Shown in pieces: positions 3,720-56,287 of a DNA stretch of 64,000 nucleotides. Origin of the DNA: an uncultured Acidobacteriota bacterium. GTDB taxonomy: Bacteria; Acidobacteriota; Vicinamibacteria; Vicinamibacterales; Fen-181. The DNA lies in NCBI GenBank assembly GCA_963701315.1, contig OY969603.1, positions 5,911,320-5,975,319 of the forward strand, read 5' to 3'. Under the pieces are notes generated by a model. It was given only the letters and a program-made list of their open reading frames with translations. It was not told where the DNA came from and searched no databases. The position numbers were made by a program, and so were the translations under genes. How positions within the stretch are numbered: the first letter of the stretch is position 1; every line of letters begins with the position of its first letter.

Positions 3720-5206
3720 TGGCGGCACTCGGCTTCTCGCCTAGCGACTTCAGCGCGCTGCTGCCGGAGCTGGTCCTCACGCTCGTGGCGCTCGTCGTGC
3801 TGATGGCCGACGCCTTCATTCCGCGCGCCCGGCACGCCGTGATCGCGTGGATCACGCTGGCCGGCCTGGTGGCGACCGCCGCCGTGCTCGCGCCCCTGGC
3901 GATGGCGCCCGCGACCACGGCGGCCCGCGGGCTGATGGCGATCGACGGCTTCGGCGCGTTCTTCAAGTTCCTCTTTCTGCTGGCTGCGGCGCTGACGGTC
4001 TTGATGTCGCCGCAGTACCTGCAGGTGGAGGGCGTGCGCCCGGGCACCTACTACTTCCTGCTGATTTGCGCGACGCTCGGCATGATGTTCATGGCGAGCG
4101 GCATCGACCTGGTGACGATCTTCATCGGCCTCGAGACGATGGCCATCTCGTTCTACATCCTGGTCGGCTTCAACAAGCCGAACCGGCGATCGAACGAGGC
4201 CGCCGTGAAGTACTTCCTGCTCGGGACCTTCTCGCTCGGCCTGCTGCTCTACGGCATGTCGATCCTCTACGGGCTCACCGGCTCGACGAGCCTCCGGACG
4301 ATCGCCACCGCGCTTGCGGGCCTGCAGCACGACAAGTGGCTCGGCCTCGGGGTCATCCTGGTGGTGGCCGGCGTCGGGTTCAAGATCGCGGCCGTGCCGT
4401 TCCACATGTGGGCGCCCGACGTCTACGAGGGCGCGCCCACGCCGATCACCGCGTTCCTCTCGGTGGGGTCCAAGGCGGCGTCCTTCGCCATGCTGCTCCG
4501 GATCTTCTTCGAGGGCCTGCCGGCGTCGAACGCCGACTGGGGGTTGTTGTTCGCTGCGCTGGCGATCCTGACGATGACCGTCGGCAACATCGCGGCGCTG
4601 ACGCAGAGCAACATCAAGCGGATGCTGGCGTACTCGTCGATCGCGCACGCCGGCTACCTGCTGATCGGCGTCGTGGCGGCCACCGCCGTTCCCGCCATTG
4701 GCATCAAGGCGACGCTCATCTACCTCGTGGTCTACGCGTTCATGCAGACCGGCGCCTTTGCCATCGTCACGCTCCTCCGGAGGCACGACGTGATCGGCGA
4801 GGAGTTGAAGGACATCAGCGGCCTGATCGCGCGCAGCCCCGCGGCAGCCATCGCGATGCTGGTGTTCATGCTGTCGCTCGGCGGGATCCCCCCCACGGCC
4901 GGCTTCATGGGGAAGTTCTGGCTGTTCAGCGCGGCCATCGACGGCGGCTACTACTGGCTGGCCGTGATCGGCGTGCTCAACAGCGCGGTGTCGCTCTACT
5001 ACTACCTGCGGGTGGTCGTGTTCATGTGGTTCAAGGGCGAGCCGTCGGGATCGGACCTCGTGCTCTCGCCCGCGATGGCGGTCCTGCTGGTGGTCACCCT
5101 GGCGGGGACGCTGGCGATCGGGATCTACCCGCGCCCGCTGTTTGACCTGGCGGACTACTCCGCCAAGACGCTCGGGGTCACGGGGTTGACCGCGGCGCTG
5201 CACTAG
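3719..5206 (+). CDS. nuoN: NADH-quinone oxidoreductase subunit N (NuoN/ND2)
   Basis: In-frame ATG at 3719 inside ORF 2648..5206, overlapping the nuoM stop (ATGA). From MAALGFSPSDFSALLPEL onward the product is ND2-like (FKIAAVPFHMWAPDVYEGAPTPITAFLSVGSK). The translation upstream of 3719 in this frame is Arg/Pro/Gly-rich junk. Confidence 0.9.
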   Translation: MAALGFSPSDFSALLPELVLTLVALVVLMADAFIPRARHAVIAWITLAGLVATAAVLAPLAMAPATTAARGLMAIDGFGAFFKFLFLLAAALTVLMSPQYLQVEGVRPGTYYFLLICATLGMMFMASGIDLVTIFIGLETMAISFYILVGFNKPNRRSNEAAVKYFLLGTFSLGLLLYGMSILYGLTGSTSLRTIATALAGLQHDKWLGLGVILVVAGVGFKIAAVPFHMWAPDVYEGAPTPITAFLSVGSKAASFAMLLRIFFEGLPASNADWGLLFAALAILTMTVGNIAALTQSNIKRMLAYSSIAHAGYLLIGVVAATAVPAIGIKATLIYLVVYAFMQTGAFAIVTLLRRHDVIGEELKDISGLIARSPAAAIAMLVFMLSLGGIPPTAGFMGKFWLFSAAIDGGYYWLAVIGVLNSAVSLYYYLRVVVFMWFKGEPSGSDLVLSPAMAVLLVVTLAGTLAIGIYPRPLFDLADYSAKTLGVTGLTAALH

Positions 5207-8761: not shown

Positions 8762-9241
8762 ATGAAGGACACGAACGGATCGCGCATCGTTTCTCGCCGG
8801 CGTCTCCTCCAGGGGCTTACCCTTGCCGGCGGCGCCGTCGCGGCCACCGCCCTGCCGAAGCGGTGGACGCGCCCCATGGTCGAGCAGGTGGAAGTACCGC
8901 TTCACGCGCAGGGATCCGTGCGCGCGTTGGCGTTCAGCGACCCACTTCAGGGGGCCAGCGTATACAGCTGCCGGGGCATCATCCCGTTCACCGTCACCAC
9001 GACGCCGCCCGTATCGGGTCTGTCGGTCGCGGTGGTGGGCAGCGGCGCAGTGGCGGCGGGGACGGCTTTCTCGGGTCCCAACCTAGTCACGGGTTCCACA
9101 GACGGTTCGGGCACCTTCTCCGGCTATTGCAGACCTACCGGTGTCTGGGATCCGACTACTCCGTGCCACCTCACCGTCTCGACGCCGGCCGCAGGCTACA
9201 GCCAGTCCACGGTCGATTTCACCCTGGCCCTTTGCTCGTAG
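8762..9241 (+). CDS. hypothetical exported protein with twin-arginine signal
   Basis: ATG at 8762 inside ORF 8651..9241. Tat-type signal SRRRLLQGLTLAGGAVAATALP. The remainder is Thr/Val/Gly-rich and beta-like (FTVTTTPPVSGLSVAVVGSG) with three Cys. No family recognised. Confidence 0.5.
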   Translation: MKDTNGSRIVSRRRLLQGLTLAGGAVAATALPKRWTRPMVEQVEVPLHAQGSVRALAFSDPLQGASVYSCRGIIPFTVTTTPPVSGLSVAVVGSGAVAAGTAFSGPNLVTGSTDGSGTFSGYCRPTGVWDPTTPCHLTVSTPAAGYSQSTVDFTLALCS

Positions 9242-9308: not shown

Positions 9309-9569
9309 GGCGCCGATAGGATCCAGGCCGTTCGCCTCTCCCGGCGACAGTAGCCCTCGGCCGCCGAATGGCCACGTGGGGCGCCCGCTGCCGAGTTCGG
9401 CAGGTCACCCTGCACAGGGCCTCGAGGTCACCCGAGACGTGCCCGTACCCCCAGGCTACCCTTCACCGTCACCACTACGCCGTCCGTATCGGGCCTGTCA
9501 GTCACCGTGGTGCGCAGCCGTACCGTGGTAGTCGAACGGTTCGGGCACCCTCTCCGGCCTGTAGCCCAC
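9309..9569 (+). pseudogene. decayed partial duplicate of the 8471-9138 region (remnant of the Tat-signal protein gene)
   Basis: 9309-9377 resembles 8471-8535 (roughly 70 percent identity by eye). 9462-9569 resembles 8987-9138, with an internal deletion and a frame change. The remnant still reads FTVTTTPSVSGLSVTVV versus FTVTTTPPVSGLSVAVV in the intact copy. Confidence 0.45.
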
Positions 9570-9603: not shown

Positions 9604-12057
9604 TCACTCCTGCCGCAGCGCGACAATCGGGTCGACCCGCGACGCGCGCCACGCCGGCTGGAGCGTGGCTGCCAGCGACGTCACCACCACGATGCCCGCT
9701 GCGAGCACCAGGCTGGTGGGATCCCAGGCCGAGACGCCGTAGAGCTCTTGCTGGACGAGCCGGTGCCCGCCGTAGGCGAGCGCGGCGCCAAGCGCCAGAC
9801 CAATTGCCACAAGCGCGAGCGACTCCCGGACCACCTGGCGGCCAAGCGCTCCGCCGGTTGCGCCGAGCGCGATGCGAATGCCGAACTCCCGCGTGCGGTA
9901 CCCCACCGCGAACAGCGTCACACCGAACAGCCCTGCGGCGGCCAGCACGAGCCCCAGGCCCGCCAAGCCTCCGGCCAGCGTCGCGGTCAGTGTCTCCGAG
10001 CGCCGGGCCGTTCCCATGTGCTCCCGCATCGTCAGGATCTCGAACGGCACGTAGGCATGGTCAGAGGTCGTCAGCCGCTTCCGCACGGCGGCGATCATGT
10101 CCGCAGGGTCGACGGCGGTCTCGACAAGAAACGTGACGTCGGCGGCCGGACGTCGCTGCGCGAATGGCAGGTAGAGGTACGGTTCGATGGTCTCCTTCAG
10201 ATAATTCGTCGGGCCGTCCTCGACGATGCCGACCACCTGGCGGTCCTCGCCCGCCGCGTGCACCCAGGTGCCAAGCGGTTCGCCCAGGCGTCCGTAGAAG
10301 CGCCGGACGAACGCCTCGTTGACCATCAGGACCTTGGCCGCCTCTGGCCCGTCCCCATCCGTAAATGGCCGTCCGCGGACCACTCGCGCGCCGGTCGCGG
10401 CGAAGTACGCAGGGCTCACCTGGTTGAAGCGGAACGTCAGCGCCGTCGCACCCGGCATGTCCACGGGGATCTCGGCGCCGCCACCCGATCCGCTGAGGAG
10501 TGCGCGACGGGCGAAGGCGACGCGCCTGACACCGGGGAGCGCCGACAACGACTGCGCGAGCGGGGCCGACCGCTCGGAGGCCCGGCCGCCCGAATCCCAC
10601 GACCCGTTGACGATGACGAGCGACCGATCCGGGTCCATTGCCGGGCGGATCGTGCTCACGTTCTGCAGGCTCTGCCACAGCAGCCCGGCCACGCAGACAA
10701 TGCCGGTCACAAAGGCAATCTGCGCCACCACCAGGACGGCGAGCCACCGCGACCTGCGGGTGCTGGCGCGGGCCAGCACGTTCGGCGACGCCGCCACCTT
10801 TGAGGCTTCGCGCACCGGTAGGAGGGTACCCACCAGCGTGACGAGCACCATCGCCGCCAGCGCGAACGCGAAGGTGCGCAGGTCGAACCGGATGTGGAGA
10901 TCGACGAAGCGCTCACCGGCAAAGAGCATCACCGGGGCGGCATCAATCAGCCACCAAGCTACCAGACACGCGAACCCGGTCCCGACCCCGCTCAGAAGCA
11001 GCATCTCGCTGACGTGCTGACGCCAGAGTGCGACCCGGCTGGCACCCAGGGCGGTGCGGATGGAGATCTCGCCCTTGCGCTCCTCGGTTTGCGCCAGCCG
11101 CATGTTGGCGACGTTGGCGGCGGCGACCAGCAGCACCAGCAGCACGATGGCGGCGAACAGCGCGGATCCGGCGGCGGTTCGGGGGTCGTCGGTCTCGTCG
11201 AGCCGCCCCACCCACGCCGTCCGCCCGGGCTCCGGCGCAGCGCCGTCCCGGTCGATTCGCCGCAGCACCGCCTCGATATCCTGCCGCACCCGCGCGAGTG
11301 TGGCTGCGGGCTTCAGTCGGCCCAGCAACTCGAAGTCCTTGTTTCGCCGGTCGCGCAGCGACTGGAGGCCGAATCCGCCGAACGCTGTCTGCATCGGGAC
11401 GAACAGGTCTACCGCCAGCCCACGGTTGGCTCCCGAGAAGCCCGCGGGCAGGACGCCAACCACCTGGACGTCGACATCGTTGACGCGTAGGCGGCGGCCG
11501 ACGACTGAGGGATCACCCCCGAGCGTCTGCTGCCAGAAGCGCCGGCTGATGACGATCTCGGCGTCCCGTCCCGCCCCGCGGTGAAAGACCGCACCGGGCG
11601 ACGCCGCGACCCCCAGTGCGTCGAAGTAGTTGTCGGAGACGTACACGATGATCGGGACCTCAGTGCGGTCCTCGAGGCGCACGGTTGCCACGTGCCGGGT
11701 CTGGGCTATGACATCGGAGAGAGCGGGTACGCCTCGCCCAATCGCCTCGAACTCGGTCCAGGTGAGGTTGCTGAGCCGCTGCTGACGGCCCTTGGCCAGG
11801 ATGGTGATCAGTTGGGCGGGTTCGCGGACCGGCAGCGCCCGCCACAGGGCGGCGTCGAGCACACTGAAGATGCCGGCGGACACGCCGATCGTCAGGGCCA
11901 ACGACACCACGATCAGCGTCGTGGCGCCGGGATGGCGTCTGGCCGACCGAACCGCGAGTACAACGTCGAAGGGCAGCGTCGACATGACCGGTCGAACCGT
12001 GCACGAAAGGTGCCACCACGCTCGAGCTCGTTTCCGCCTGAAGAGAGCCCGATCCAT
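9604..12057 (-). CDS. ADOP-family duplicated FtsX/MacB-like ABC permease (no cognate ATPase nearby)
   Basis: 817-aa ORF with two FtsX-type 4-TM modules, each with a large periplasmic domain. The N-terminus (DVVLAVRSARRHPGATTLIVVSLALTIGVSAGIFSVLDAALWRALPVREP) and the C-terminal RASRVDPIVALRQE are typical of the family. The true start may be the internal ATG at 11985 (MSTLPFD). Confidence 0.8.
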   Translation of the reverse strand: MDRALFRRKRARAWWHLSCTVRPVMSTLPFDVVLAVRSARRHPGATTLIVVSLALTIGVSAGIFSVLDAALWRALPVREPAQLITILAKGRQQRLSNLTWTEFEAIGRGVPALSDVIAQTRHVATVRLEDRTEVPIIVYVSDNYFDALGVAASPGAVFHRGAGRDAEIVISRRFWQQTLGGDPSVVGRRLRVNDVDVQVVGVLPAGFSGANRGLAVDLFVPMQTAFGGFGLQSLRDRRNKDFELLGRLKPAATLARVRQDIEAVLRRIDRDGAAPEPGRTAWVGRLDETDDPRTAAGSALFAAIVLLVLLVAAANVANMRLAQTEERKGEISIRTALGASRVALWRQHVSEMLLLSGVGTGFACLVAWWLIDAAPVMLFAGERFVDLHIRFDLRTFAFALAAMVLVTLVGTLLPVREASKVAASPNVLARASTRRSRWLAVLVVAQIAFVTGIVCVAGLLWQSLQNVSTIRPAMDPDRSLVIVNGSWDSGGRASERSAPLAQSLSALPGVRRVAFARRALLSGSGGGAEIPVDMPGATALTFRFNQVSPAYFAATGARVVRGRPFTDGDGPEAAKVLMVNEAFVRRFYGRLGEPLGTWVHAAGEDRQVVGIVEDGPTNYLKETIEPYLYLPFAQRRPAADVTFLVETAVDPADMIAAVRKRLTTSDHAYVPFEILTMREHMGTARRSETLTATLAGGLAGLGLVLAAAGLFGVTLFAVGYRTREFGIRIALGATGGALGRQVVRESLALVAIGLALGAALAYGGHRLVQQELYGVSAWDPTSLVLAAGIVVVTSLAATLQPAWRASRVDPIVALRQE

Positions 12058-14709: not shown

Positions 14710-14981
14710 GGCCGACTATAGTACGTGTCCGCGGCCGCTGCTCGCAAGCGATCGCGCGCCATGCTCACTGTTCCGCGCCAACTTGCTCACGCGGCCCCGC
14801 CTGAGCCACCGCCGGCCCGGTTCCCGAGGCCGGCCCGATCCGACTCCGTGGATCGGGGCGCCGCGCGCAGGGCGACGGCGTCGCGGGACGCAGCAGTCGA
14901 CGGACGCCATCACTCGATGGCCGATGGAACAGCCTGAGGTAGAATCTGGACCTTCATGGGACCCCCTGGGGCCGGCACACC

Positions 14982-16164
14982 ATGACTCGCGTCCTCCCAC
15001 CGCTACTCCTCGGCGGCGCGTTGGTTCGCCCCAGCGACGCCGAGTTGGAGGCTCTCCACCGGCTGGCCGCCGATTGCGAGGACTGGGACGGCCTCGTCCG
15101 GCAGGCCGACGCGCACGGCCTGGCGCCCCTGCTGGCGCGCCATCTTGACGGTGCGCATGTCCAGCTTCCTCGCTCCGCCGCGCGCCTGCTGCGCGCGCTC
15201 CGGGTGATGCATCGTGACGCCAACGCGGCACGCCTGCAGGCGCTCGCCGACATCCTGCGACTGTTCGCGTCTGCGGACGTGGAGAGCGTCGTGCTGAAGG
15301 GCGCGGCCCTCGGGATTCTCGTCTACGGAGATCCCGCCCTTCGGCCGATGTGCGATCTCGACCTGCTCGTGCCGCGGTCCGACGTGCGCCGGGCCCAACT
15401 CCTGCTCGAGCACCACGGGTTTGAACCCTCGTGGACGGAACCGCACCGGAGGAAGTTCGGCGCACACCACCACCTGCCACCCCTCGTCCGTCACGTGGAC
15501 GGGGTCGCGGTCGAGGTCGAACTCCATCACAACGCCTTTCACCTCGATCAGCCCGCGTCGCTCGAGATCGTCCGGGACAACGGAGCGCCGGTGCTCGTTG
15601 GCGCTGACCGCGCTGCGCGGCATGCGGTTCGGACGCAGGACCACCTCGCTTTCACGGTCGACGGCGTGGATGCGCGGACCCTCGGGCCCACCGAGCTGCT
15701 CTGGCACCTGTCGCGAGGCGTGGTCGAACTCCGACAGCCGATGCAGCTGGTGCATGCCGTGGACGTCGTGGAAGTCGCCCGCCAGTACCGAGCAGGTCCT
15801 CGACTGGGACGCGCTGCCGCGATGCCATCCGTGTGTCCTCAGCACCCTGCGGCTCGTCAATCTCGTGCTGCCGTTGCCGGTCGACGTCGCTCGCCACCTG
15901 CCCGGACTCCGCGGCTCGAGACGTCCCGAGGGAATCGGTCAGGACTATACCGGTGCTCCCCTTCGCTCCTCCTGGACCGCCGAGAACGGCGGACTGTCGG
16001 GGTTGATCAAGGACACGCTGTTTCCACCGGAGTGGTGGCTGCGGATGTACTATGCCGAGGGCCTCGCGCCGGGCTGGCGCTGGCCACTGACGCTGCGCCA
16101 TCAGCTGGCCGTCGGCGGGGCCGGCCTACGGCACGCGGCTCGTCAGCTGCGTCGGCACCGGTGA
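14982..16164 (+). pseudogene. PF14907-like 'uncharacterised nucleotidyltransferase', one frameshift as assembled
   Basis: The N-terminal ~268 codons are in the frame of ORF 14982..16457 (KGAALGILVYGDPALRPMCDLDLLVPRSDVRRAQLLLEHHGF). The C-terminal part continues in the frame of ORF 15421..16164 (EQVLDWDALPRCHPCVLSTLRLVNLVL...FPPEWWLRMYYAEG). The +1 shift lies within CAGTACC at 15783-15789. Confidence 0.7.
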
Positions 16165-16196
16165 GGGATCACGACCGCTATCTGGACGGGCCGACC

Positions 16197-16457
16197 ATGA
16201 CCACTCGACCGCGCCGCGTGGCGGCGTACCGGCTGGAACAGCTCGAGAACGAGCTGCTCCTCTACCATCCCGGCCGCACGGTCACGCTCTACTGCAACGA
16301 CACGGCGGCACTCGTCTGGCAGCTGTGCGACGGGACGCTCACCTCGGATCAGATTGCCCAACTGCTCTCCGAGCAGTATCCGGAGGCCTCCGTTGCCGAG
16401 GACGTGCAGGCAACGCTGCGCGCCTTCGCACACCATGGCGCGATTGAGTTCATCTGA
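16197..16457 (+). CDS. PqqD-family protein (RiPP recognition element-like peptide chaperone)
   Basis: ATG at 16197 in the tail of ORF 14982..16457. The 86-aa product, MTTRPRRVAAYRLEQLENELLLYHPGRTVTLYCNDTAALVWQLCDGTLTSDQIAQLLSEQYPEASVAEDVQATLRAFAHHGAIEFI, matches the PqqD pattern. The pattern is a beta-strand, then 'LN.ta..iW.l.dG..t..ei', then a helical end. Confidence 0.75.
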   Translation: MTTRPRRVAAYRLEQLENELLLYHPGRTVTLYCNDTAALVWQLCDGTLTSDQIAQLLSEQYPEASVAEDVQATLRAFAHHGAIEFI

Positions 16458-17301
16458 GAGCGCCCGCGGCACGGCGTGCTTCACCTTCGCCGGCAGCACG
16501 GTCGTCGTGCAGGCGGTGGGCGCGCGGGCCTGCTCGATCCTCGACCTGCTCTTCGGCCGGGTCCCCACCGTCAAGTCGGCTGATGCCGCGGGCGACGACG
16601 CGATCGCCCTTCGCATCGTCGAGACGACGTCAGGCCTCGATGTGACCCGCGGCGCCGTGGCCATCTGCCGGGGTGGGGACGAGGGCGCGGCGGCGAGTCT
16701 CCTGCTCGGCGAGGTGATGTACGCCCTCGCCGACCGGTGCACGACAGGCGTCCTCTTCCACGCGGCCGCCGTCGCTCGGGACTGCCGGGCAATCCTGTTG
16801 CCCGGCCGCAGTCACAGCGGCAAGACGACGCTCGCCGCCTGGCTGGCGCCTCGGTGCGGATACGTCACGGATGAGATGGTGTTCATGCCGCTCGACGCGG
16901 GCGGCGTGCAGCCGTTCAGCCGGCCGCTCCAGCTCCGGCACGCGGCTCGCGAGGCGCTCGCGGCCGACACGGCGCTACTGGATCACCGGCGGTCGGTCTC
17001 CGGCAGCGATTTCGACCTCGTGGTCCTCCCCGACCTCTCGGTGCCGTCGGCCCGCCCGCTCGACCTGCAGGCCATCATCTTTCCGCGCTACAACGCCGCG
17101 TCGGCGGGGGAAGTGACGAAACTGTCCCAGGCGCAGACGGGCCTGGCGTTGATGGAGTGCGTGCTCAACGTTCGGAACCGGCCCGAGCAGATCTTCGCGG
17201 CCGTGGCGGCGGTCGCGCGCCGCGCGCCGGCCTATCGGATGACCTATTCGAGTCTCACCCAGGTGGAGCGGGACCTGAACGCGATCGTGGATGCGCTCTG
17301 A
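16435..17301 (+). CDS. HPr-kinase-related (HprK-like) P-loop kinase
   Basis: ATG at 16435 inside ORF 16354..17301, overlapping the PqqD gene end by 23 nt. It has the Walker-A-like AILLPGRSHSGKTTLAAWL followed by GYVTDEMVF, as in HprK C-terminal domain relatives found next to PqqD genes. Confidence 0.7.
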   Translation: MARLSSSESARGTACFTFAGSTVVVQAVGARACSILDLLFGRVPTVKSADAAGDDAIALRIVETTSGLDVTRGAVAICRGGDEGAAASLLLGEVMYALADRCTTGVLFHAAAVARDCRAILLPGRSHSGKTTLAAWLAPRCGYVTDEMVFMPLDAGGVQPFSRPLQLRHAAREALAADTALLDHRRSVSGSDFDLVVLPDLSVPSARPLDLQAIIFPRYNAASAGEVTKLSQAQTGLALMECVLNVRNRPEQIFAAVAAVARRAPAYRMTYSSLTQVERDLNAIVDAL

Positions 17302-17342: not shown

Positions 17343-17798
17343 CTACCGCGGCTGCGGAGTGGCTTCCAGGACGGCGGCCACGAGGTTGGCCGCGTCCCGA
17401 ACGATGCCCGGGCAGATCTCGCGGAAGACTCCTCGGTCACGCGCCGCCTGGAGACGCTCCGGCGTGTCGATTGGCCCGTGAATCAGCTCCCGGCACAGCA
17501 CCGACGGGTGTCGGGCCTCGAACTGCTCGATGAAGTCGTTGATCAGGCGGTAGGTGCGCTCCTTGTCGGCCTCGCCGGAGTTCGCGTGGCCGCGTGCCAG
17601 GCCCAGGACCATCAATGCCCCGGTCACCGCGCCGCACACCTCGCCTCTGCGGGCCATGCCGCCCCCGAAGGCCGACCCGAGCCGCATCGCCGTCTCCGCG
17701 GGAAGCCCGAAGTGGTCGCCAAACGCGCTGAACACGGCCTGCGAGCAGGAAAAGCCCTCGGCGAAGCGCTGCACGGCCACCGCGGATTCGTCCGTCAT
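17343..17798 (-). CDS. C_GCAxxG_C_C-family putative redox protein
   Basis: 151 aa with the family's spaced cysteines: FSCSQAV, CGAVTGA (C-G-A-x-x-G), CRELI and ICPGIV. Its start overlaps the stop of the upstream NHL-like gene (ATGA at 17795-17798). Confidence 0.8.
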   Translation of the reverse strand: MTDESAVAVQRFAEGFSCSQAVFSAFGDHFGLPAETAMRLGSAFGGGMARRGEVCGAVTGALMVLGLARGHANSGEADKERTYRLINDFIEQFEARHPSVLCRELIHGPIDTPERLQAARDRGVFREICPGIVRDAANLVAAVLEATPQPR

Positions 17799-18921
17799 CG
17801 TCCGCCCTCGATTCGACCCGGTCGATCAAGCGACCGCGGGTCGAAGATATCGCACCCAGGCGCCACCAGCAGGTGACCGTCCGCAGCGAAGAAGAGCCCG
17901 GAGGGTTCGATCACGCCTGCCCCGCGAAACTGCACGACGCGCGTGCGATCGCCCTGGGCATCATACACGTACGTCACGGGGACGTGGGCCAACGACACCC
18001 ACAGGCTGCCCGACGCGTCCACGGCGGCGGCGCGGACGAGTTGGGGGACCAGGGGCAGGAGGCGATCCCCGACCTGGCGACGCGGCCACGTGGTCGGCAG
18101 CGCGTTCAGCACGCCGTCGATTTCCCGCCCTTCCACGTGGCGTTCGAACACGACGGCGCCGGCTTCGTCCAGTTTCCGGACCATCGGGCGCCCGGCCTGG
18201 AAGACGAAGTAGAAGCCTCCCTCCGGAGCGACGAGCGGGATGCCGGCGTTGAGCGCGAAGTGGATGTCCGGGTCGTTCTCGAAACCCGTCGCGCGTGGCA
18301 CGCCGATGGCGCGGACGGCTTCGCCCGACACGGTGAACTCCGAGATGAGCGCGCCGCTCTCGGGCAGGCTGACGAACACGGAGCGGCCCCAGGTACCTGC
18401 AGCCATCCCACCCCGCCCACAACGAGGCCGTCGACGATGAACCGTTCGGTCGTGCGGCCCGGCACGGTGAAGCCGCCCAGGAGCGATCCACCTGCCTCGA
18501 ACACCTGGATACGGTCGCGGGCGGCCGGCCGATCGGCGACGGCGAACGTGCCGTTGGGGGAGAGCGCGAAGGCGGTCGGCCCGTAGATCCGACCGGGTTC
18601 CTGCCCGATCCTGACGACCGTCCACGACCCGGTCATCGCGGCGTCGATGCCGTGAACGGTGTGCCCCGCCCGGTCGAACACGTAGAACTGCCCGGAACCG
18701 GCCTGTGCGAATGCGACCACCTCGCGGAAGGTTCCGACGATCTCGGCCGGTACGGCCCGCACGGCGCTCAGCATCTGGACCCGGGAGGTGTCCCGGCCGC
18801 CCTCGACGCGGCCGCGCAGCGAGCGTTCTGGGCCCTGCGGCGCCGGGAGGGCCAGGCAGGCCGACAGCGTCAGGAATCCCCGCCGGGACAGCGAAGGCGA
18901 CGGTGGCTTCGACTCGATCAT
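17795..18921 (-). pseudogene. Tat-exported NHL/TolB-like beta-propeller protein, one frameshift as assembled
   Basis: ORF-track frames 18106..19119 and 17795..18625 join into one product. ATG at 18921, Tat signal SRRGFLTLSACLALPA. Repeated propeller-blade-like segments follow (GQFYVFDRAGHTVHGID, FAVADRPAARDRIQVFE, GGFYFVFQAGRPMVRKLDE, LWVSLAHVPVTYVYDAQG). The frame changes near GGTACC at 18392-18397. Confidence 0.6.
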
Positions 18922-18967
18922 GCTTGGCCAGCGCGCGACGAGGTGTGCCGCCAGGTCCGCCCGGTCT

Positions 18968-21112
18968 TCAGTACCGTGCGGTCTCCCGGATCGCGCGGAG
19001 CACGTCGGCGCTCTGGGGAAGGATGACCTCCTCCAGGTTGGGCGCGTAGGCGACCGGCGTGTCGAGCGCGGCGACGCGTCGCACCGGGGCGTCGAGATGT
19101 TCGAACAGGTCACCGGCAATGCGGGCGGCGATCTCCGCGCCGAACCCGCACGTCAGTTGGTCCTCGTGGGCGATGATGACACGATTGGTCCGCCGGACGA
19201 TCGTCGCAATCCCCTCCCAGTCGTACGGGACGAGCGTCCTGAGGTCGAAGACGGCGGCGCTGATCCCGTCCTTTTCCGCCTGCTGGGCCGCGAGGAGGCT
19301 GCGCTGCACGAGAGCGCCCCACGTCAGGACGACGAGGTCTTCGCCGTCCCGGACGAGCGCCCCCTTGCCGAACGGCAGCGTGTAGTCGGGCCCCGGGTAG
19401 ACGCCCTTGTTGTAGGTCTGGCGGTACAGGTGCTTGTGCTCGAGAAACAGGACCGGGTCGTCGCAGCGGATGGCGGTCCGCAGCAACCCCGCCGCGTCGA
19501 CCGCGTTGGACGGGAAGACCACTCGGATGCCCGGGCAATGGGCGAAGATGCTCTCGCCGGACTGGCTGTGGTACGGCGCGCCCCCGCGCAGGTAGCCGCC
19601 GATCGGGACGCGAACGACCATCGGGCACGAGAAGTTGTTGCCGGAGCGGTACCGGAGCATCGCCATCTCGTCCCGCAGCTGCATCATCGCCGGCCAGATG
19701 TAGTCGAAGAACTGGATCTCCACCACCGGCTTGATGCCCCGCGTGGCCATGCCCACGGCCCGCCCGGTGATGTTCGCCTCGGCGAGCGGCGAGTTGAACA
19801 CGCGGGTAGCGCCGAATGCCCGCTGGAGGCCGTGCGTGACCTTGAACACCCCGCCCTTACCCGAGACCGCGGAGAGGGCCTCCTCCCGCGAGGCGTCGGC
19901 CACGTCCTCCCCAAAGAGGATGATCCGCGGGTCCCGCCCCATCTCGTCGCGCAGCGTTCGGTTGATCGCCGCCACCATGGTGTCCGGTTTCCCCGTGCCG
20001 GTTGCCTCGGCGTCGAACGCGGCCGACGTCGGATCGACATCGGGGGAGAACACCCAGAGCGCGGCCGTGTCAGGCGCCGGCTTGGCCGCGCGCAAGGCGA
20101 GCTCCGCCGCCGCCGCCACCTCGCGCTCGGCGGTCGTCTCGATCTGTTCGAGCGCGGTGTCGGTCGCCAAGCCGTCCTCGAGCAGTAGGCGGCGCAGTCG
20201 CCGCAAGGGGTCCCGGGCGGCCTCGGTCTGCCGCTCGGCGGGGGTCTTGTACAGCCGCTCGTCGTCGGAGAGCGAGTGCGAGTAGGGCCGGATCACGTGC
20301 GCGTGCACGAGCGACGGGCCGCGGCGCTCCCGGGCATAGGTGACGGCGTCGCGCAGCCCCCGATGGCTGTCGAGCAGGTCCGTGCCGTCCACCGTCAGGA
20401 CGTTGAGCCCCGGATAGGCGCGCACGATGCGAGAGATGTCGCCCCCGGGCGTCTGGATCTCGCGGGGGACCGAGATGGCGTAGCCATTGTCCTGGACGAG
20501 GTACACGACCGGCAGCCGCTTGCCGCAGGCCGTGTTCAGGGACTCCCAGAACTCGCCCTCGGCGGTGGCGCCCTCGCCTAGTGACACGTAGACGACCTCG
20601 TCGGGCCGACACCGGGCCTCGCGGCCGGGGATCTCCTCAATCCGCTGGTAGAACCGGCCTGCCTCGGCACACCCGACCGCTTGCAGGCACTGTGTGCCGG
20701 TCGGGCTTCCCTGCGACACGATATTGAGCCGCTTGTGGCCCCAGTGCGACGGCATCTGCCGCCCCCCGGACGCGGGGTCGTCTCGGGCACCCACAGCCTC
20801 GAGGAGCATCTCGTACGGGGTCACACCCAGGGCCAGGCACAGCGCACGGTCGCGGTAGTACGGATAGAACCAGTCGTAGCCGGGTCGCAGGTGCAGGGCG
20901 GCGGCCACCAGCACGGCTTCGTGTCCCGCACCGCTGATCTGGAAGAAGATCTGACTCTGGTTCTTGAGCTGGATCTCCTTGTCGTCGAGCTTTCTCGACA
21001 GGACCATCCAGGTGTAGGCGCGCAGCAGGTCGTCGCGGGTGAGGTCGGTCTGCCGGGCTGATGCCCCTGGCGCCAGCCCATTCAACCCGCTGACTGGAGT
21101 CGATGCGTCCAT
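18968..21112 (-). CDS. fused alpha/beta E1 component of a TPP-dependent 2-oxoacid dehydrogenase
   Basis: 714 aa. The N-terminal half is E1-alpha-like with the TPP motif [37 protein letters not shown]. The C-terminal half is E1-beta/transketolase-like ([35 protein letters not shown]). No E2 or E3 gene is adjacent. Confidence 0.85.
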
Positions 21113-21627: not shown

Positions 21628-24135
21628 ATGTCGATGTCCGCGCTTCCCTGGTCCCTGCGGGCGCTGCTCCGCACGCCGCTCGTTACCGTGGCGGCTGTCG
21701 TCTCGCTTTCGCTCGGTATCGGGGCGAACGCGGCCATCTTCTCGCTGTTCGACCAGACCCTGCTCCGGGCGCTCCCGGTCCGGGAACCGGGCCGCCTGGT
21801 CAACCTGGCGGCGCCGGGGCCGAAGCCCGGCTCCCAGTCGTGCAACCAGGCGGGCGGCTGTGACGCGGTCTTCAGCTACCCGATGTTCCGCGACCTCGAG
21901 CGGCAGCAGGCCGTCTTCACCGGCATCGCGGGGCACCGCCTCTTCGGGGCCAACCTGGCCTACCGCGGGCAGACGCTCAGCGGGGACGGCGCGCTGGTGT
22001 CCGGGAGTTACTTCTCCGTGCTGGGAATCCAGCCGGCGATCGGCCGCCTGTTGGACTCGGGCGATGACCGCACCATCGGTGAATCTCACGTGGTCGTGCT
22101 CAGCGACTCGTACTGGCGGACGAGGTTCAGCGCCAGCCCCAGCGTCCTGAACCAGACCCTGATCGTCAACGGTCAGCCGCTCACCATCGTCGGCGTCACG
22201 CCCCGCGGCTTCCGGGGCACGACGGTGGGCGCTTCGCCCGCCGTGTTCGTGCCGATCACGCTCCGGGAGACGATGGAGCCGTTCTTCCACGAGCCGCAGT
22301 TCGACAAGCGCCGCGCGTACTGGATCTACCTCTTCGCCCGGCTGAAGCCCGGCGTGTCCCTCGATCAGGCGCGCGCCGCCCTCAACGTCCCCTACCGCGC
22401 GATCATCAACGACGTGGAGGCCCCGCTGCAGAAGGGGATGAGCGACCAGACGATGAAACGGTTCCGGGTGCGTCAGGTCGTGGTCGAGGCGGACCCCCGG
22501 GGCCAGAGCAGCGTCCACCGCGAGGCGCGCACGCCGATGTGGCTGCTCCTGGGGCTGACCGGTCTCGTGCTGGTCATGGCCTGCGCGAACATCGCGAACC
22601 TCCTGCTGGCCCGAGGGGCGTCCCGCTCGGCTGAGATGGCCGTGCGGTTGTCGATTGGCGCGGGACGCGGGCGGCTGATCCGGCAACTACTTGGTGAATC
22701 GTGCCTGTTGGCGGTGGCGGGGGGCGCCCTCGGCCTGCTGGTCGCCCACTGGACGCTGGACCTGATCGCGTCGCTGATGCCAGCCTCCGCCGCGACGACG
22801 CTCAGCTTCGAGATCGACGGACGGGTCCTGCTGGTGTCGGCCGCGCTCGCCGCGGCCACGGGACTGCTCTTCGGGCTGTTTCCCGCGCTGCACGCCACGC
22901 GGCCCGACGTGGTCAGCTCGCTCAAGGGCCAGGCCGGCCAGCCGGGCGGTCCGCGGTCCGCCTCCCTGTTCCGCACCTCGCTGGCGACCCTGCAGGTCGG
23001 GCTGTCGATGCTCCTGCTGGTCTGTGCCGGGCTCTTCGTCAGGAGCCTGTTCAACGTGAGTCGTGCCGACCTCGGCCTGAAGATCGACAACGTGGTGACG
23101 TTTGGCGTGGCGCCGATGCTCAATGGCTACAGCGCCCCGCAGTCCCGACAGCTGTTCGAGCGCATCGAGGACGCCTTCGCCTCAACGCCCGGCGTGACCG
23201 GTGTGACGGCCGCAATGGTGCCCCTGCTCGCCGGCAACAACTGGGGCACCTCGGTCGGCGTCGAGGGATTCGACGCCGGGCCGGACACCGACGTCGAGGC
23301 GCGCTTCAACGAAATCGGGCCCGGCTTCTTCTCCACGCTCGGCGTGCCGCTCGTGTCCGGCCGGGAGTTCTCGCCGGCCGACGGCGTTGGCGCCCCGAAG
23401 GTGGCGATCGTCAACCAGGCCTTCGCCCGGAAGTTCCACCTCGGACGGAACGCCGTCGGCCGCCACATCGATCCCGGCGGCGGCAAGAAGCTCAACGTCG
23501 AGATCGTGGGTCTGGTCGCCGACGCGAAGTACAGCGAGGTGAAGGACGCCGTTCCGCCGCAGTTTTTCCAGCCGTACCGCCAGGACGACACGATCGGCTT
23601 CATCACCTTCTACGTGCGCTCGGGCCTGGACGCCAAAGAGATCCTCGGCGTGATCCCGAAGGTGGTGGGCCGGATCGATCCGAATCTCCCCGTCGACAGC
23701 CTCCGGTCGATGCCGCAGCAGGTGCGGGAGAACGTGTTTCTCGACCGGTTCATCACGGTGCTGTCGGCCGCCTTCGCCAGCCTGGCCACCTTGCTGGCGG
23801 CCATCGGGCTCTATGGCGTGTTGGCCTACGCCGTCGCGCAGCGGACTCGCGAGATCGGGCTGCGCATGGCCCTCGGGGCCACGCCGGGCGGCGTGCGGCG
23901 GATGATCCTCAGGCAGACGGGGCTGATGACGGCCATCGGAGGGATCGCCGGGCTGGTCCTGGCCGTGGTTGTGGGCCGCTACGCGCAGTCGCTGCTCTAC
24001 GAGCTGAAGGGCGACGATCCGGCGGTCTTCGCCGGTGCGGCGGTCACGCTCGGTCTCATCGCGCTGATGGCGGGTTTCATTCCGGCGCAGCGCGCGTCGC
24101 GGGTCGACCCGATGCGGGCCCTGCGCTACGAGTGA
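21628..24135 (+). CDS. ADOP-family duplicated FtsX/MacB-like ABC permease (second copy, no ATPase nearby)
   Basis: 835 aa with the same architecture as 9604..12057. The N-terminus is LRALLRTPLVTVAAVVSLSLGIGANAAIFSLFDQTLLRALPVREP and the C-terminus is QRASRVDPMRALRYE. Confidence 0.8.
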   Translation: MSMSALPWSLRALLRTPLVTVAAVVSLSLGIGANAAIFSLFDQTLLRALPVREPGRLVNLAAPGPKPGSQSCNQAGGCDAVFSYPMFRDLERQQAVFTGIAGHRLFGANLAYRGQTLSGDGALVSGSYFSVLGIQPAIGRLLDSGDDRTIGESHVVVLSDSYWRTRFSASPSVLNQTLIVNGQPLTIVGVTPRGFRGTTVGASPAVFVPITLRETMEPFFHEPQFDKRRAYWIYLFARLKPGVSLDQARAALNVPYRAIINDVEAPLQKGMSDQTMKRFRVRQVVVEADPRGQSSVHREARTPMWLLLGLTGLVLVMACANIANLLLARGASRSAEMAVRLSIGAGRGRLIRQLLGESCLLAVAGGALGLLVAHWTLDLIASLMPASAATTLSFEIDGRVLLVSAALAAATGLLFGLFPALHATRPDVVSSLKGQAGQPGGPRSASLFRTSLATLQVGLSMLLLVCAGLFVRSLFNVSRADLGLKIDNVVTFGVAPMLNGYSAPQSRQLFERIEDAFASTPGVTGVTAAMVPLLAGNNWGTSVGVEGFDAGPDTDVEARFNEIGPGFFSTLGVPLVSGREFSPADGVGAPKVAIVNQAFARKFHLGRNAVGRHIDPGGGKKLNVEIVGLVADAKYSEVKDAVPPQFFQPYRQDDTIGFITFYVRSGLDAKEILGVIPKVVGRIDPNLPVDSLRSMPQQVRENVFLDRFITVLSAAFASLATLLAAIGLYGVLAYAVAQRTREIGLRMALGATPGGVRRMILRQTGLMTAIGGIAGLVLAVVVGRYAQSLLYELKGDDPAVFAGAAVTLGLIALMAGFIPAQRASRVDPMRALRYE

Positions 24136-55448: not shown

Positions 55449-56287
55449 TTACGGTTTGGCGTGATCCGATCCGAGGACAACCCTGGGCCGGCCCCTGGAC
55501 CACTCCGTGAGCGCACCACCAAACCTGTACCGAAGCAGGTGGACGAAGAACTCGAGGCACGCCGAGGGGCGCACGTGGCTCAGCCCGTTCGACCGCATCC
55601 GCGCGAAGACGTTCATTTCGAGGACCCGGACGCCGAGGTAGTGGGCCTTGATCATCATCTCCGGGTCGATGAACCAGTTCTTCGACTGCAGGTCCATCTC
55701 CGCGAGCACCCGACGATGCAGGATTCTTGGGGCTGCCGTTGACGTCGGCCGACCCGAGGCGCGGCCAGAGCAGCCAGACGAAACCGTTGTAGAGGACCGA
55801 CACGACCTTGCGCGTGACGCCGTCCATGCGGAAACGGCGTCGGACCTTGCCGAGGACGTTCCCGTCGGTGTGCTTGAGTACTTCGAAGAGCCGCGCCGCA
55901 TCCTCGGCGTCCACTTGCCCATCCGCGTGGATGATGCCGACCCAGGGCGCCGAGCAGACGGGAATCGACTGCAGGACCCCGTTGCCGTAGCCTTCGTTCC
56001 GCTCGACTCGGTGGTAGACCACCGGCAGGCCCTCGGCGACGAACCCCTTGATGACCTCGCCCGTGCGATTCTGTGGACCCGTTGTCACAGGCGACCAGCT
56101 CGAGGCGGTGTCCGGCTTGCGCGAACGCCTGCAGGAGGCGAGGGATCGTGTACGGGATCACGTCCTGCTCGCAGTAGCACGGCATGATCAGCGAGATTTC
56201 GGACGCTGCGTCCGCGCTTTCGCAGGCCGCTCCTGTGAGCGCGGACTGTTGATTGAACCGGTCGGCGGCGCCGGTCTCACTGGGCAT
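55449..56287 (-). pseudogene. GT2 glycosyltransferase (Dpm1/polyprenyl-phosphate-sugar-synthase-like), two frameshifts as assembled
   Basis: Three frames join. ISLIMPCYCEQDVIPYTIPRLL...LELVACDNGST is in frame 55655..56287. DRTGEVIKGFVAEGLPVVYHRVERNEGYGNGV...GIIHADGQVDAEDAARL...DVNGSPK is in frame 54748..56088. ILHRRVLAEMDLQSKNWFIDPEMMIKAHYLGVRVLEM is in frame 55449..55922. Deleting one T from gattc at 56067-56071 and from gattc at 55722-55726 restores a single frame. Confidence 0.7.

What the first reader, a model, noticed from the sequence alone, without database searches (positions are those of the whole stretch)
14982..17301. Stand-alone nucleotidyltransferase (PF14907-like) / PqqD / HprK-like kinase cassette with no RiPP core enzyme or visible precursor
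Three consecutive same-strand genes encode a PF14907-type nucleotidyltransferase (DLDLLV motif), an 86-aa PqqD-family protein and an HPr-kinase-related P-loop protein (GRSHSGKTT). The last two genes overlap by 23 nt. PqqD domains are peptide-binding recognition elements in RiPP pathways. As far as I recall, HprK-like kinases and PF14907-type nucleotidyltransferases are tailoring enzymes in paeninodin/pseudomycoidin-type lasso-peptide clusters, acting on the precursor C-terminal Ser. Here I see no lasso cyclase (Asn-synthetase-like), no transglutaminase-like leader protease, no ABC exporter and no convincing short precursor ORF. NCBIfam/TIGRFAMs names such as 'HprK-related kinase A/B' and 'PqqD family protein, HPr-rel-A system' suggest the trio is conserved, but I know of no assigned function or substrate. 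It could be a peptide or protein phospho-/phosphoglycosyl-modification system. Its neighbours are a divergent membrane-fused SpeE-like protein and a convergent C_GCAxxG / Tat-propeller pair. Neither offers an obvious substrate.
Basis: partly seen in the sequence, partly recalled or inferred. Interest (0 to 1): 0.75.

Follow-up and report, generated by a model that had tools for sequence, protein, structure and literature searches.

The report
Tat-leader protein modification cassette
The three genes are real, and comparison with about 130 related loci shows they normally sit next to a fourth, unannotated gene family of secreted peptides and proteins with a conserved twin-arginine leader and an invariant Ser/Thr; this window encodes one 5.7 kb upstream, which is probably the missing substrate.

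Summary
Window 14982-17301 encodes a PF14907 nucleotidyltransferase, an 86-aa PqqD and a P-loop HprK/PEPCK-fold kinase, and the last two overlap by 23 nt. Two corrections are needed. The NTase is frameshifted in this assembly by an extra C at 15789; a read-based contig of the same locus has it intact. The PqqD and kinase score below the NCBIfam 'HPr-rel-A' cut-offs, so they are sister families.

The claim of no visible precursor does not hold. In related loci the trio is flanked by a fourth family with no model in the Pfam or NCBIfam copies searched. It has a Tat-type RR signal, a conserved W-x-x-P...P-A-H-A-Q box, then an invariant Ser/Thr two residues later (103/103; 140/143 in an independent set). 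Cores range from 4 to about 260 residues. Loci fetched by the leader motif alone carry the trio (15/19 with at least 1 kb on both sides). The family has about 2,800-5,000 clusters at 50% identity. The window has one member at 8762-9241.

No lasso genes are co-conserved. Fusions to glycosyltransferases, a GDP-fucose enzyme and a sulfotransferase suggest leader-guided phospho-/glycosyl modification before Tat export. The chemistry is inferred, not shown. I found no published description.

The parts
8762..9241 (+). Candidate substrate gene (159 aa). It has a Tat-type leader plus a conserved recognition box (residues 1-50), then a 109-aa mature part.
   Evidence: The leader HMM hits at E 7e-17, the only hit in the 64-kb window. 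A GGAGG lies 7 nt before the ATG. The source annotation calls the same 159-aa gene (P0016). TIGR01409 TAT_signal scores 23.7 bits against a cut-off of 16.7. GC3 is 0.80.
8795..8803 (+). Twin-arginine motif S-R12-R13-R14-L-L-Q.
   Evidence: RR is invariant in 21/21 aligned leaders. An RR-type motif is present in 143/143 top library hits.
8864..8911 (+). Conserved leader box W35-T-R-P38-M-V-E-Q-V-E-V-P46-L-H48-A49-Q50. The predicted signal-peptidase site is A49|Q50.
   Evidence: W, the first P, the second P and A are invariant; H and Q are conserved in at least 90%. Cleavage after A-H-A is inferred from the -3/-1 rule and was not tested.
8915..8917 (+). Ser52, the family-invariant Ser/Thr two residues after HAQ. 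It is the proposed modification site.
   Evidence: Ser or Thr in 103/103 non-redundant members and in 140/143 of an independent set. The retrieval pattern did not include this position.
9459..9558 (+). Decayed partial duplicate of the middle of the substrate gene.
   Evidence: Direct repeats 8984-9053/9459-9528 (83% identical) and 9102-9124/9536-9558 (96% identical).
14982..16164 (+). PF14907 nucleotidyltransferase, 393 aa once the extra C at 15789 is removed. Catalytic D125-x-D127 is at 15354-15362.
   Evidence: The AlphaFold model (pLDDT 89) has a Pol-beta-type NTase fold; the nearest PDB matches are a fungal NTase-like protein, ANT(2'')-Ia, LnuA and FKRP.
15789..15789 (+). Extra C that frameshifts the NTase in this assembly.
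   Evidence: It is absent from contig L001. Homology and GC3 continue in frame +1.
16197..16457 (+). PqqD-family (RRE-type) protein, 86 aa.
   Evidence: PF05402, E 3e-12. In 65 loci the median gap from PqqD end to kinase start is 1 nt. Natural PqqD-kinase and PqqD-glycosyltransferase fusions exist.
16435..17301 (+). HprK/PEPCK-fold P-loop kinase, 288 aa. H109 is at 16759-16761, the Walker A motif at 16804-16830, and D146-E147 at 16870-16875.
   Evidence: H109, G129, K130 and D146 are invariant across 15 homologues, and E147 is conserved in at least 90% of them.

Best explanation
The trio is the enzyme set of a four-component system that is guided by a leader sequence. The fourth component is a family of secreted peptides and proteins. 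Their N-terminus is both a twin-arginine (Tat) signal peptide and a conserved recognition box: RR...W-x-x-P...P-A-H-A-Q-x-[S/T]. In this window the substrate is the 159-aa protein encoded at 8762-9241.

Proposed mechanism:
1. In the cytoplasm, the PqqD (RRE-type) protein binds the conserved box of the leader. This step is inferred.
2. PqqD presents the substrate to the kinase, which is translationally coupled to it. The kinase phosphorylates the invariant Ser/Thr (Ser52 here), and possibly further Ser/Thr in Thr/Pro-rich cores. This step is inferred.
3. The PF14907 NTase builds on the phosphate with a hexose or a nucleotidyl group, by analogy with PsmK/PsmN of pseudomycoidin. In relatives, glycosyltransferases, LicD or sulfotransferase domains extend or vary the decoration. 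This step is inferred.
4. The modified product is exported by Tat and cut by signal peptidase after A-H-A. That leaves Gln-x-Ser/Thr(mod) at the new N-terminus. This step is inferred.

What is shown: the gene families, their tight and reciprocal co-localisation, the invariant residues, the folds and the fusions.
For: 1. Forward association. 25 of 48 loci found through the kinase carry a leader gene, mostly 100-500 bp from the trio.
2. Reverse association. 73 metagenome loci were fetched only by the leader pattern G[VA]LPAHAQ[VAT]. Of these, 37 carry trio genes. The fraction is 15/19 with at least 1 kb on both sides, 7/8 with at least 2 kb, and 6/6 with at least 3 kb.
3. Gene order. Two different gene orders keep the same four genes together.
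4. Closest relative. The closest kinase relative (P0002, 39% identical) has NTase-PqqD-kinase-leader protein.
5. Invariant residue. Ser/Thr at +2 after HAQ is invariant. RR, W, P, P and A are invariant in the leader.
6. Core length. Some cores are only 4-7 residues (GSFR, ASPPTV, TSARPV). In such members few other sites are available.
7. Rarity. The leader family is rare: 4,997 of 1.84 billion representatives at E<=1e-3, and 2,796 at E<=1e-10. The window has exactly one member, 5.7 kb from the trio.
8. Tat signal. TIGR01409 is passed by the window protein and matched by 14 of 33 members.
9. Fusions. PqqD-kinase (P0014); PqqD-FucT_N-GT2-GT25, kinase-GT2 and kinase-fucose pyrophosphorylase/GHMP kinase; kinase-GT2 and sulfotransferase-NTase in Mesorhizobium; LicD and a sugar-1-P nucleotidyltransferase in L148/L149.
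10. Catalytic residues. The H...GxxGxGKT...DE motif of the kinase and the DxD of the NTase are conserved.
11. Precedent. An HprK-type kinase phosphorylates the C-terminal Ser of the precursor peptide, and the NTase PsmN is required for adding hexose to that phosphate. A PsmN D134A/D136A mutant is inactive (PMC6993621, PMC8498205).
12. Precedent. A signal peptide serves as the export route of a RiPP precursor in the bufferins (PMC11626156).
Against: - No biochemical step was tested.
- About half of the kinase loci with ample flanks have no leader gene nearby (for example L009, L016, L021, L039, L050), and a relaxed motif search found none there.
- Some leader peptides stand alone, without the trio within 8-10 kb (P0031, P0091).
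- In this window the substrate gene is separated from the trio by two unrelated genes on the opposite strand.
- The window has no adjacent glycosyltransferase.
- The kinase resembles PEPCK more closely than HprK/P in the fold search.
- The NTase's donor cannot be read from its fold.
- I could not confirm that PsmN belongs to PF14907.
- If the frameshift at 15789 is real, this copy lacks a functional NTase.
Confidence: 0.6

Rival explanations
1. Same four-gene module, but different targets. PqqD acts as a chaperone that holds the Tat signal (REMP-like) or as a general docking unit. The kinase, NTase and glycosyltransferases decorate many Ser/Thr in the Thr/Pro-rich region (mucin-like O-phosphoglycosylation). 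The invariant +2 Ser/Thr would then serve recognition or signal-peptide processing and would not be the acceptor.
For: Many cores are Thr/Pro-rich or nearly pure poly-Thr. The first 30 mature residues are 16% Thr, 12% Pro and 11% Ser. Glycosyltransferase fusions are seen. HprK-type lasso kinases can add several phosphates (PMC8498205).
Against: The window protein and many others have no Thr-rich tract. Cores as short as GSFR leave only the +2 Ser. The +2 position is invariant, whereas neighbouring positions vary.
Confidence: 0.2
2. The trio acts on a non-protein substrate such as a cell-surface glycan, a lipid-linked sugar or a small molecule. The leader-bearing proteins would be co-regulated secreted partners and not substrates.
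For: Some contexts are rich in glycosyltransferases, sulfotransferases, epimerases, LicD and PAP2. The window carries a glycan-type region 11-45 kb downstream of the trio. Half of the trio loci lack a leader gene nearby.
Against: In every characterised case (established knowledge), a PqqD/RRE domain is a peptide-binding element. The leader box and the +2 Ser/Thr are conserved far beyond what a signal peptide needs. Short peptides with 4-7-residue cores make little sense as mere partners. PqqD is fused to the kinase or to glycosyltransferases.
Confidence: 0.1
3. This particular copy is decaying. The NTase frameshift is real and the cassette no longer works in this organism.
For: The deposited complete genome carries the extra C. 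A degraded duplicate of the substrate gene lies next to the intact one. The intact 393-aa NTase is on record only from the Logan source, not from NCBI.
Against: A contig assembled from run ERR11594402 is otherwise identical and lacks the C. All six differences between the two assemblies lie in GATC or GTACC contexts, and the two other indels also split a gene (the NHL propeller). That pattern fits chemistry-linked errors. GC3 and homology remain fully coding-like after the shift.
Confidence: 0.07
4. Split lasso-peptide cluster. The trio tailors a lasso peptide whose cyclase, protease and precursor lie elsewhere in the genome.
For: HprK-type kinases and NTases are known lasso tailoring enzymes (PMC8498205, PMC6993621). 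The rest of the 7-Mb genome could not be searched.
Against: No cyclase or protease family is co-conserved in about 130 related loci, and none appears in the annotated contexts or among the window ORFs scanned. Instead a different precursor family is adjacent, in both directions of the search. The NCBIfam lasso PqqD model scores only 16.6 bits against a cut-off of 70.
Confidence: 0.03

Closest known systems
Lasso-peptide tailoring pair PsmK/PadeK (HprK-type kinase) and PsmN (uncharacterised NTase) of pseudomycoidin/paeninodin
   Same: Both combine an HprK-superfamily P-loop kinase, a Pol-beta-fold NTase with an essential DxD, and a PqqD/RRE protein in one cluster. Both act, or are predicted to act, on a Ser hydroxyl of a ribosomal precursor before export. 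A sulfotransferase sometimes joins the set (PMC8498205, PMC6993621).
   Different: This system has no lasso cyclase, B2 protease or ABC exporter. Its precursor family is unrelated and has a Tat-type leader. The conserved hydroxyl residue is at the start of the core and not at the C-terminus. Substrates include folded proteins of 100-260 residues. Whether PsmN belongs to PF14907 was not tested here.
NCBIfam 'HPr-rel-A system' (TIGR04352 HprK-related kinase A and TIGR04353 PqqD family chaperone)
   Same: It is the best-scoring curated kinase model (E 1e-22 to 7e-27). It shares the pairing of a PqqD with an HprK-like kinase.
   Different: Kinases score 79-94 bits against a cut-off of 200 and match only the C-terminal two thirds of the model. 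The window PqqD scores 18.7 against 35, and the other three PqqDs tested do not match at E<=1e-3. This is a sister family. I know of no described substrate for either.
Bufferins and other RiPP precursors that carry a general-secretion signal peptide
   Same: The precursor uses a housekeeping export signal in place of a dedicated transporter, and signal peptidase in place of a dedicated leader protease. Substrates can be small folded proteins (PMC11626156).
   Different: Bufferins use Sec signals and MNIO/DUF2063 enzymes that make thiooxazoles, and their signal peptide is dispensable for modification. Here the signal is Tat-type, it carries an extra strongly conserved box, and it is paired with an RRE protein.
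Tat proofreading chaperones (REMPs such as TorD/DmsD), from established knowledge
   Same: In both, a cytoplasmic protein is proposed to bind a Tat signal peptide and hold the substrate until maturation is complete.
   Different: REMPs are all-helical proteins that serve cofactor insertion into redox enzymes. Here the binder is a PqqD-fold protein and the maturation is covalent modification of Ser/Thr. The resemblance is functional only and is inferred.
HprK/P and PEP carboxykinase (PEPCK-like P-loop superfamily)
   Same: The fold is shared (Foldseek E 7e-8 to PEPCK and 9e-3 to HprK/P). The H...GxxGxGK[T/S]...D[D/E] core is also shared (partial TIGR00679 match for a relative).
   Different: The window protein has no significant sequence match to a solved HprK/P (E 0.55). 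Its N-terminal domain differs, and the context contains no HPr or PTS genes.

Membership tests
PF14907 (NTP_transf_5) | Score above the Pfam gathering threshold; conserved hG[GS]-type motif and DxD | tested here: met
   119 bits against a cut-off of 31.2. K106-G107 and D127 are invariant and D125 is conserved in at least 90% of 29 homologues. The NTase fold is confirmed.
PF05402 (PqqD / RRE fold) | Score above the Pfam gathering threshold | tested here: met
   47.1 bits against a cut-off of 23.4.
PF05402 (PqqD / RRE fold) | Binds the leader region of a precursor peptide | not testable with these tools
Support comes only from adjacency and fusions.
NCBIfam HPr-rel-A system (TIGR04352 and TIGR04353) | Kinase at or above 200 bits on TIGR04352 and PqqD at or above 35 bits on TIGR04353 | tested here: not met
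   The window kinase scores 80.4 bits and the window PqqD 18.7 bits. Five kinases from other loci of this family score 79-94 bits, and their PqqDs give no TIGR04353 match at E<=1e-3.
HPr kinase/phosphorylase proper (TIGR00679) | Full-length match including the N-terminal domain; HPr as substrate | tested here: not met
   The window kinase has no TIGR00679 hit. Similarity is at fold level only. No ptsH context is present.
SynChlorMet cassette (ScmC/ScmD) | ScmC at or above 125 bits and ScmD at or above 100 bits, next to radical SAM/SPASM maturases | tested here: not met
   ScmC scores 20.9 bits and ScmD 18.3 bits. The precomputed Pfam PF27840 ScmC hit is only 'faint' or 'weak'. No rSAM gene is adjacent.
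Lasso-peptide biosynthetic cluster | Asn-synthetase-like cyclase (C) and transglutaminase-like leader peptidase (B/B2) in the cluster | tested here: not met
   Neither is co-conserved in about 130 loci. Neither is found in the annotated contexts or among the window ORFs scanned. The rest of the genome was not searchable.
Lasso-peptide biosynthetic cluster | Short precursor with a C-terminal Ser as kinase target (paeninodin type) | tested here: not met
   The C-termini of the associated family are not conserved, and the invariant Ser/Thr is at core position +2 after HAQ.
Twin-arginine (Tat) signal peptide | S/T-R-R-x-F-L-K-type motif, a moderately hydrophobic h-region and an AxA site; TIGR01409 at or above 16.7 bits | tested here: met
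   The window protein scores 20.3-23.7 bits. 14 of 33 family members match at E<=0.01. RR is invariant.
Twin-arginine (Tat) signal peptide | Export depends on TatABC, and signal peptidase I cleaves after AxA | not testable with these tools
   Inferred from sequence only.
RiPP pathway (general definition) | A gene-encoded precursor with a conserved leader and a variable core, clustered with an RRE and modifying enzymes | tested here: met
RiPP pathway (general definition) | A demonstrated post-translational modification of the core | not testable with these tools
   No experimental data are available. No publication was found.

The most novel reading that the evidence does not exclude
This is a previously undescribed class of ribosomally made, post-translationally modified peptides and proteins. 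In it, a Tat signal peptide doubles as the RRE-recognised leader. The motif P-A-H-A-Q-x-[S/T] works like a 'box', comparable in logic to the lipoprotein lipobox. It marks one hydroxyl residue at position 3 of the mature N-terminus for phosphorylation and then phosphodiester-linked glycosylation or nucleotidylation. The result could be a new N-terminal tag or anchor on exported proteins, and a family of very small modified secreted peptides in Chloroflexota, Desulfobulbaceae (including cable-bacteria relatives), Acidobacteriota and several Proteobacteria.
Probability: 0.35. Interest if true: 0.85.

Novelty: new variant of a known kind. Interest (0 to 1): 0.75.

Why it matters
As far as I could find, stand-alone PqqD/HprK-like kinase/PF14907 cassettes have had no known substrate. 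This analysis gives them a concrete and testable one. It is a leader family of roughly 2,800-5,000 clusters at 50% identity, for which the Pfam and NCBIfam copies searched hold no model.

If the mechanism holds, four things would follow:
- The RRE-guided RiPP logic would extend to Tat-exported peptides and full-size proteins.
- Serine/threonine phosphoglycosylation or nucleotidylation would join the bacterial repertoire for modifying secreted proteins.
- A new N-terminal sequence signal would be defined that genome annotation currently misses.
- It would explain how a system can do without its own protease and exporter.

A cultured strain with a complete cluster makes experiments feasible: Mesorhizobium sp. 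10J20-29 (CP199156.1).

Tried and rejected
- Small ORF upstream of the NTase (14725-14937, 70 aa) as precursor. Rejected: GC by codon position is flat (0.77/0.72/0.72), no related ORF recurs in other loci, and the leader HMM does not hit it.
- Immediate neighbours as substrates or partners (SpeE-like membrane protein, C_GCAxxG protein, NHL propeller, MacB permease). tblastn against all fetched loci found no conservation, apart from one MacB hit in another probable acidobacterial contig.
- Split lasso cluster. See the rival explanations.
- Membership in HPr-rel-A, SynChlorMet or true HprK/P. Scores are below the cut-offs.
- Variant leaders in trio loci that lack a leader gene. Relaxed regular expressions found none.
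- The two small genes before PqqD in L002 look like membrane proteins from their sequence and are not precursors.
- Other universally co-conserved genes (protease, exporter, Tat components). None was found; the next most frequent neighbour families occur in 8 or fewer of about 120 loci.
- AlphaFold of a leader-linker-PqqD fusion.
- Broad alignments were too diverse for the search for related loci, so I used narrower ones.
- Sequence search of PDB. Nothing significant for the kinase (best HprK E 0.55) or the NTase. Fold search was needed.
- Rfam found no RNA family in the window. The promoter/terminator scan was uninformative.
- The source organism was not identified. The 7.04-Mb record could not be retrieved. 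The window probably comes from an acidobacterium, judging only from relatives and the MacB-type permeases.
- Pfam on eight mature domains gave only weak, below-threshold hints (Hint_2, DUF2135).
Full report
**1. The observation**

Three genes lie on the + strand between 14982 and 17301.

- NTase. The first product matches PF14907 (E 3.2e-34, residues 32-269) and contains PMCDLDLLV.
- PqqD. The second gene (16197-16457, 86 aa) matches PF05402 (E 3e-12).
- Kinase. The third gene (16435-17301, 288 aa) carries GRSHSGKTT. Its best curated match is TIGR04352, 'HprK-related kinase A' (E 1.2e-22).
- The PqqD stop and the kinase ATG overlap by 23 nt.

Two corrections are needed.

First, the NTase is frameshifted in this window. 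Frame 0 reads from 14982 through to the PqqD stop, and the Pfam match ends at profile position 215 of 249. The real C-terminus (EQVLDWDAL...WWLRMYY...) is in frame +1 after an extra C at 15789. GC3 is 0.80 in the shifted frame and 0.57 in the read-through frame. A Logan contig of the same locus (L001, run ERR11594402, 99.84% identical) lacks this C and encodes an intact 393-aa protein.

All six differences between the two assemblies sit in GATC or GTACC contexts. At 15354 the window is right, because it encodes the catalytic Asp. At the three indels, L001 restores two ORFs. I therefore read the frameshift as a sequencing artefact, with modest residual doubt.

Second, the kinase (80 bits against a cut-off of 200) and the PqqD (18.7 against 35) fall well below the HPr-rel-A equivalog thresholds. 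So do five kinases and three PqqDs from other loci of this family.

**2. The enzymes**

Kinase:
- Only 15 homologues were found by word-seeded search of 5.8 billion proteins.
- H109, G129, K130 and D146 are invariant, and E147 is conserved in at least 90%.
- The AlphaFold model (pLDDT 86) matches PEP carboxykinases (E 7e-8, TM about 0.55-0.59), followed by HprK/P (E 9e-3). This is the PEPCK-like P-loop superfamily to which HprK/P belongs.
- Sequence comparison with PDB found nothing significant.

NTase:
- The model (pLDDT 89) has a Pol-beta-type NTase fold. Its nearest, weak relatives are a fungal NTase-like protein, ANT(2'')-Ia, LnuA, FKRP and TglT/MenT.
- ANT(2'') is also what Zyubko et al. 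found for PsmN by threading (PMC6993621).
- K106-G107 and D127 are invariant, and D125 is nearly so.

**3. The missing fourth component**

I fetched 61 genome loci through the kinase and clustered all ORFs within 7 kb of it. Besides NTase and PqqD, one further family recurred, in 24 loci at that stage. It is 100-230 aa long and lies immediately upstream of the NTase or downstream of the kinase.

Its N-terminus is strongly conserved: [ST]-R-R-x-L-L-K-x-L...G-G...L-P-x-x-W-x-K-P-V-V-x(4)-[LV]-P-A-H-A-Q. The remainder is variable. It is often Thr/Pro-rich, and sometimes consists only of about 30-40 residues of nearly pure poly-Thr.

The only curated model that matches the family is the generic Tat signal (TIGR01409/PF10518).

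An HMM of the 42-residue leader hit 28 of the 70 sources then held, at E 6e-10 or better (most 1e-17 to 1e-23). That includes the window, once, at 8789-8911 (E 7e-17).

The window gene runs from 8762 to 9241. It has a GGAGG 7 nt upstream, GC3 of 0.80, and the same 159-aa call in the source annotation. A degraded partial copy follows at 9459-9558. The gene lies 5.7 kb upstream of the NTase. A MacB-type permease and the SpeE-like membrane protein lie between them, both on the other strand.

**4. Is the association real?**

Forward direction:
- 25 of 48 loci with a kinase of this subfamily hold a leader gene.
- 19 of those 25 are within 100-504 bp of the trio.

Reverse direction:
- I scanned metagenome contigs with the leader pattern G[VA]LPAHAQ[VAT] only. 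Of 73 confirmed loci, 37 carry NTase, PqqD or kinase genes.
- Most of the rest are 1-2 kb contigs.
- With at least 1 kb on both sides the fraction is 15/19, with at least 2 kb it is 7/8, and with at least 3 kb it is 6/6. Gaps are usually under 700 bp.

Other points:
- Gene orders are NTase-PqqD-kinase (40 loci), PqqD-kinase-NTase (10 loci) and PqqD-NTase-kinase (1 locus). The gene set survives rearrangement.
- PqqD and kinase abut or overlap. The median gap is 1 nt in 65 loci.
- The closest kinase relative, P0002, has NTase-PqqD-kinase-leader protein.
- A full HMMER scan of 1.84 billion representative proteins found 4,997 leader-bearing clusters at E<=1e-3 and 2,796 at E<=1e-10. In the 150 best, the match is always N-terminal, in proteins of 51-345 aa.
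- The family is therefore large in absolute terms but very rare per genome. One copy within 6 kb of the trio is unlikely to be chance.
- No other neighbour family is shared by more than 8 loci. The window's own neighbours are not conserved elsewhere.

**5. The invariant residue**

Two residues after H-A-Q there is always Ser or Thr.
- It is Ser or Thr in 103 of 103 non-redundant members. The retrieval pattern did not include this position.
- It is Ser or Thr in 140 of 143 of the independent top hits from the representative library. At least one of the three exceptions is a register slip of my regular expression.
- Flanking positions vary.
- Many members are short precursors whose core after HAQ is only 4-7 residues, such as GSFR, ASPPTV, TSARPV and ATGQR.

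A-H-A followed by Q fits the -3/-1 rule for signal peptidase I. The residue would then be position 3 of the mature product, after an N-terminal Gln. In the window protein it is Ser52 (8915-8917).

**6. Hints at the chemistry**

Fusions and additional genes in relatives:
- PqqD-kinase (P0014).
- PqqD-FucT_N-GT2-GT25, next to a poly-Thr/Ser leader peptide (L042).
- Kinase-GT2 (L037, L046).
- Kinase-fucose pyrophosphorylase/GHMP kinase (L044).
- Mesorhizobium sp. 10J20-29: two tandem Thr-rich leader peptides, a kinase-GT2, a PqqD and a sulfotransferase-NTase.
- LicD, a sugar-1-phosphate nucleotidyltransferase, PAP2 and GT32 in L148/L149.
- Several glycosyltransferases in L004.

Published precedent:
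- HprK-type kinases phosphorylate the C-terminal Ser of lasso precursors.
- PsmN is needed to put one or two hexoses on that phosphate (PMC6993621, PMC8498205).
- Bufferins show that a RiPP precursor can rely on a general signal peptide for export (PMC11626156).

**7. The most likely mechanism**

PqqD binds the conserved box of the Tat leader. The coupled kinase phosphorylates the +2 Ser/Thr. The NTase elaborates the phosphate. Tat then exports the product, and signal peptidase removes the leader.

The families, the reciprocal linkage, the invariant residues, the folds and the fusions are shown. Every biochemical step is inferred.

Weak points:
- Half of the well-flanked trio loci lack a nearby leader gene.
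- Some leader peptides stand alone.
- In this window the gene is not adjacent to the trio.
- The NTase donor is unknown.

**8. Comparison with what is known**

- It works like the kinase/NTase tailoring branch of paeninodin/pseudomycoidin clusters, but it is not a lasso cluster. No cyclase or protease is co-conserved, and none was found among the large ORFs scanned in the 64-kb window. Those ORFs otherwise encode nuoLMN, atpB, MacB permeases, an E1 dehydrogenase and a glycan-type region with PMT-like glycosyltransferases and rSAM/SPASM enzymes.
- It is a sister of the NCBIfam HPr-rel-A families, not a member.
- It resembles the bufferins in using a housekeeping export signal. It differs from them in signal type, in enzymes, and in having an RRE.

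Literature searches found no description of this four-gene module or of a Tat-type RiPP leader. A 2025 list of phosphorylated RiPPs does not include it (PMC12639078).

**9. Verdict**

- I class the system as a new variant of a known kind: RRE-guided peptide tailoring by an HprK-type kinase and an NTase, here stand-alone, with its own large and unannotated precursor family.
- Interest is 0.75.

Noticed in passing
window 9459-9558: Decayed partial duplicate (83-96% identical over 70 and 23 nt) of the middle of the leader-protein gene. It suggests a former tandem second copy.
   Followed up: partly
window 14837, 15354, 15788/9, 18394, 18398, 18485: All six differences from the Logan contig L001 lie in GATC (G/A) or GTACC (indel) contexts. 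This looks like methylation-motif-linked sequencing error. The window is right at 15354, and L001 restores ORFs at the indels. The window has 54 GTACC sites, so other genes may carry similar artefacts.
   Followed up: partly
window 17795-19119 (-): The NHL/beta-propeller gene with a Tat-like N-terminus is split into two overlapping ORFs in the window. The two extra T at 18394/18398 account for the split.
   Followed up: partly
window 28095-61558: A glycan/EPS-type region. It contains a GT4, three PMT-like glycosyltransferases, a Wzx-like flippase, an epimerase/dehydratase, a B12-binding radical SAM and two radical SAM/SPASM enzymes (41459-42694, 56188-58524). The SPASM enzymes could belong to a separate peptide-maturation system.
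   Followed up: no
window 9604-12057 (-) and 21628-24135 (+): Two large duplicated-domain MacB_PCD/FtsX permeases without an adjacent ATPase. From my own knowledge, this type is common in Acidobacteriota.
   Followed up: no
L145 7568-12172 (Mesorhizobium sp. 10J20-29, CP199156.1): A cultured isolate with a complete variant cluster: two tandem leader peptides with Thr-rich cores, a kinase-GT2 fusion, a PqqD and a sulfotransferase-NTase fusion.
   Followed up: partly
L026 8031-8321, L037 7453-8288, P0067, P0053: Desulfobulbaceae, including Ca. Electrothrix (cable-bacteria relatives), encode leader peptides. In several of these (L026, L037, P0067) the core is almost pure poly-Thr. In these loci the kinase is fused to a GT2.
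   Followed up: no
L020 1079-1723: One leader-bearing protein has a mature part that starts with a Hint-like motif (CLSGDTRIDTP). Pfam Hint_2 gives E 7.8e-5, below its cut-off.
   Followed up: partly
L098 5226-5666, L093 1916-2365: Leader proteins whose short mature part has repeated His-rich motifs (HGHS...THTH...GHTH). This may indicate metal binding, and no family matched.
   Followed up: no
L047 9971-10840 (Vicinamibacterales MAG): A 40%-identical kinase homologue with no PqqD, NTase or leader gene within 10 kb on either side. It follows a gene whose product looks TPR-like by eye.
   Followed up: no
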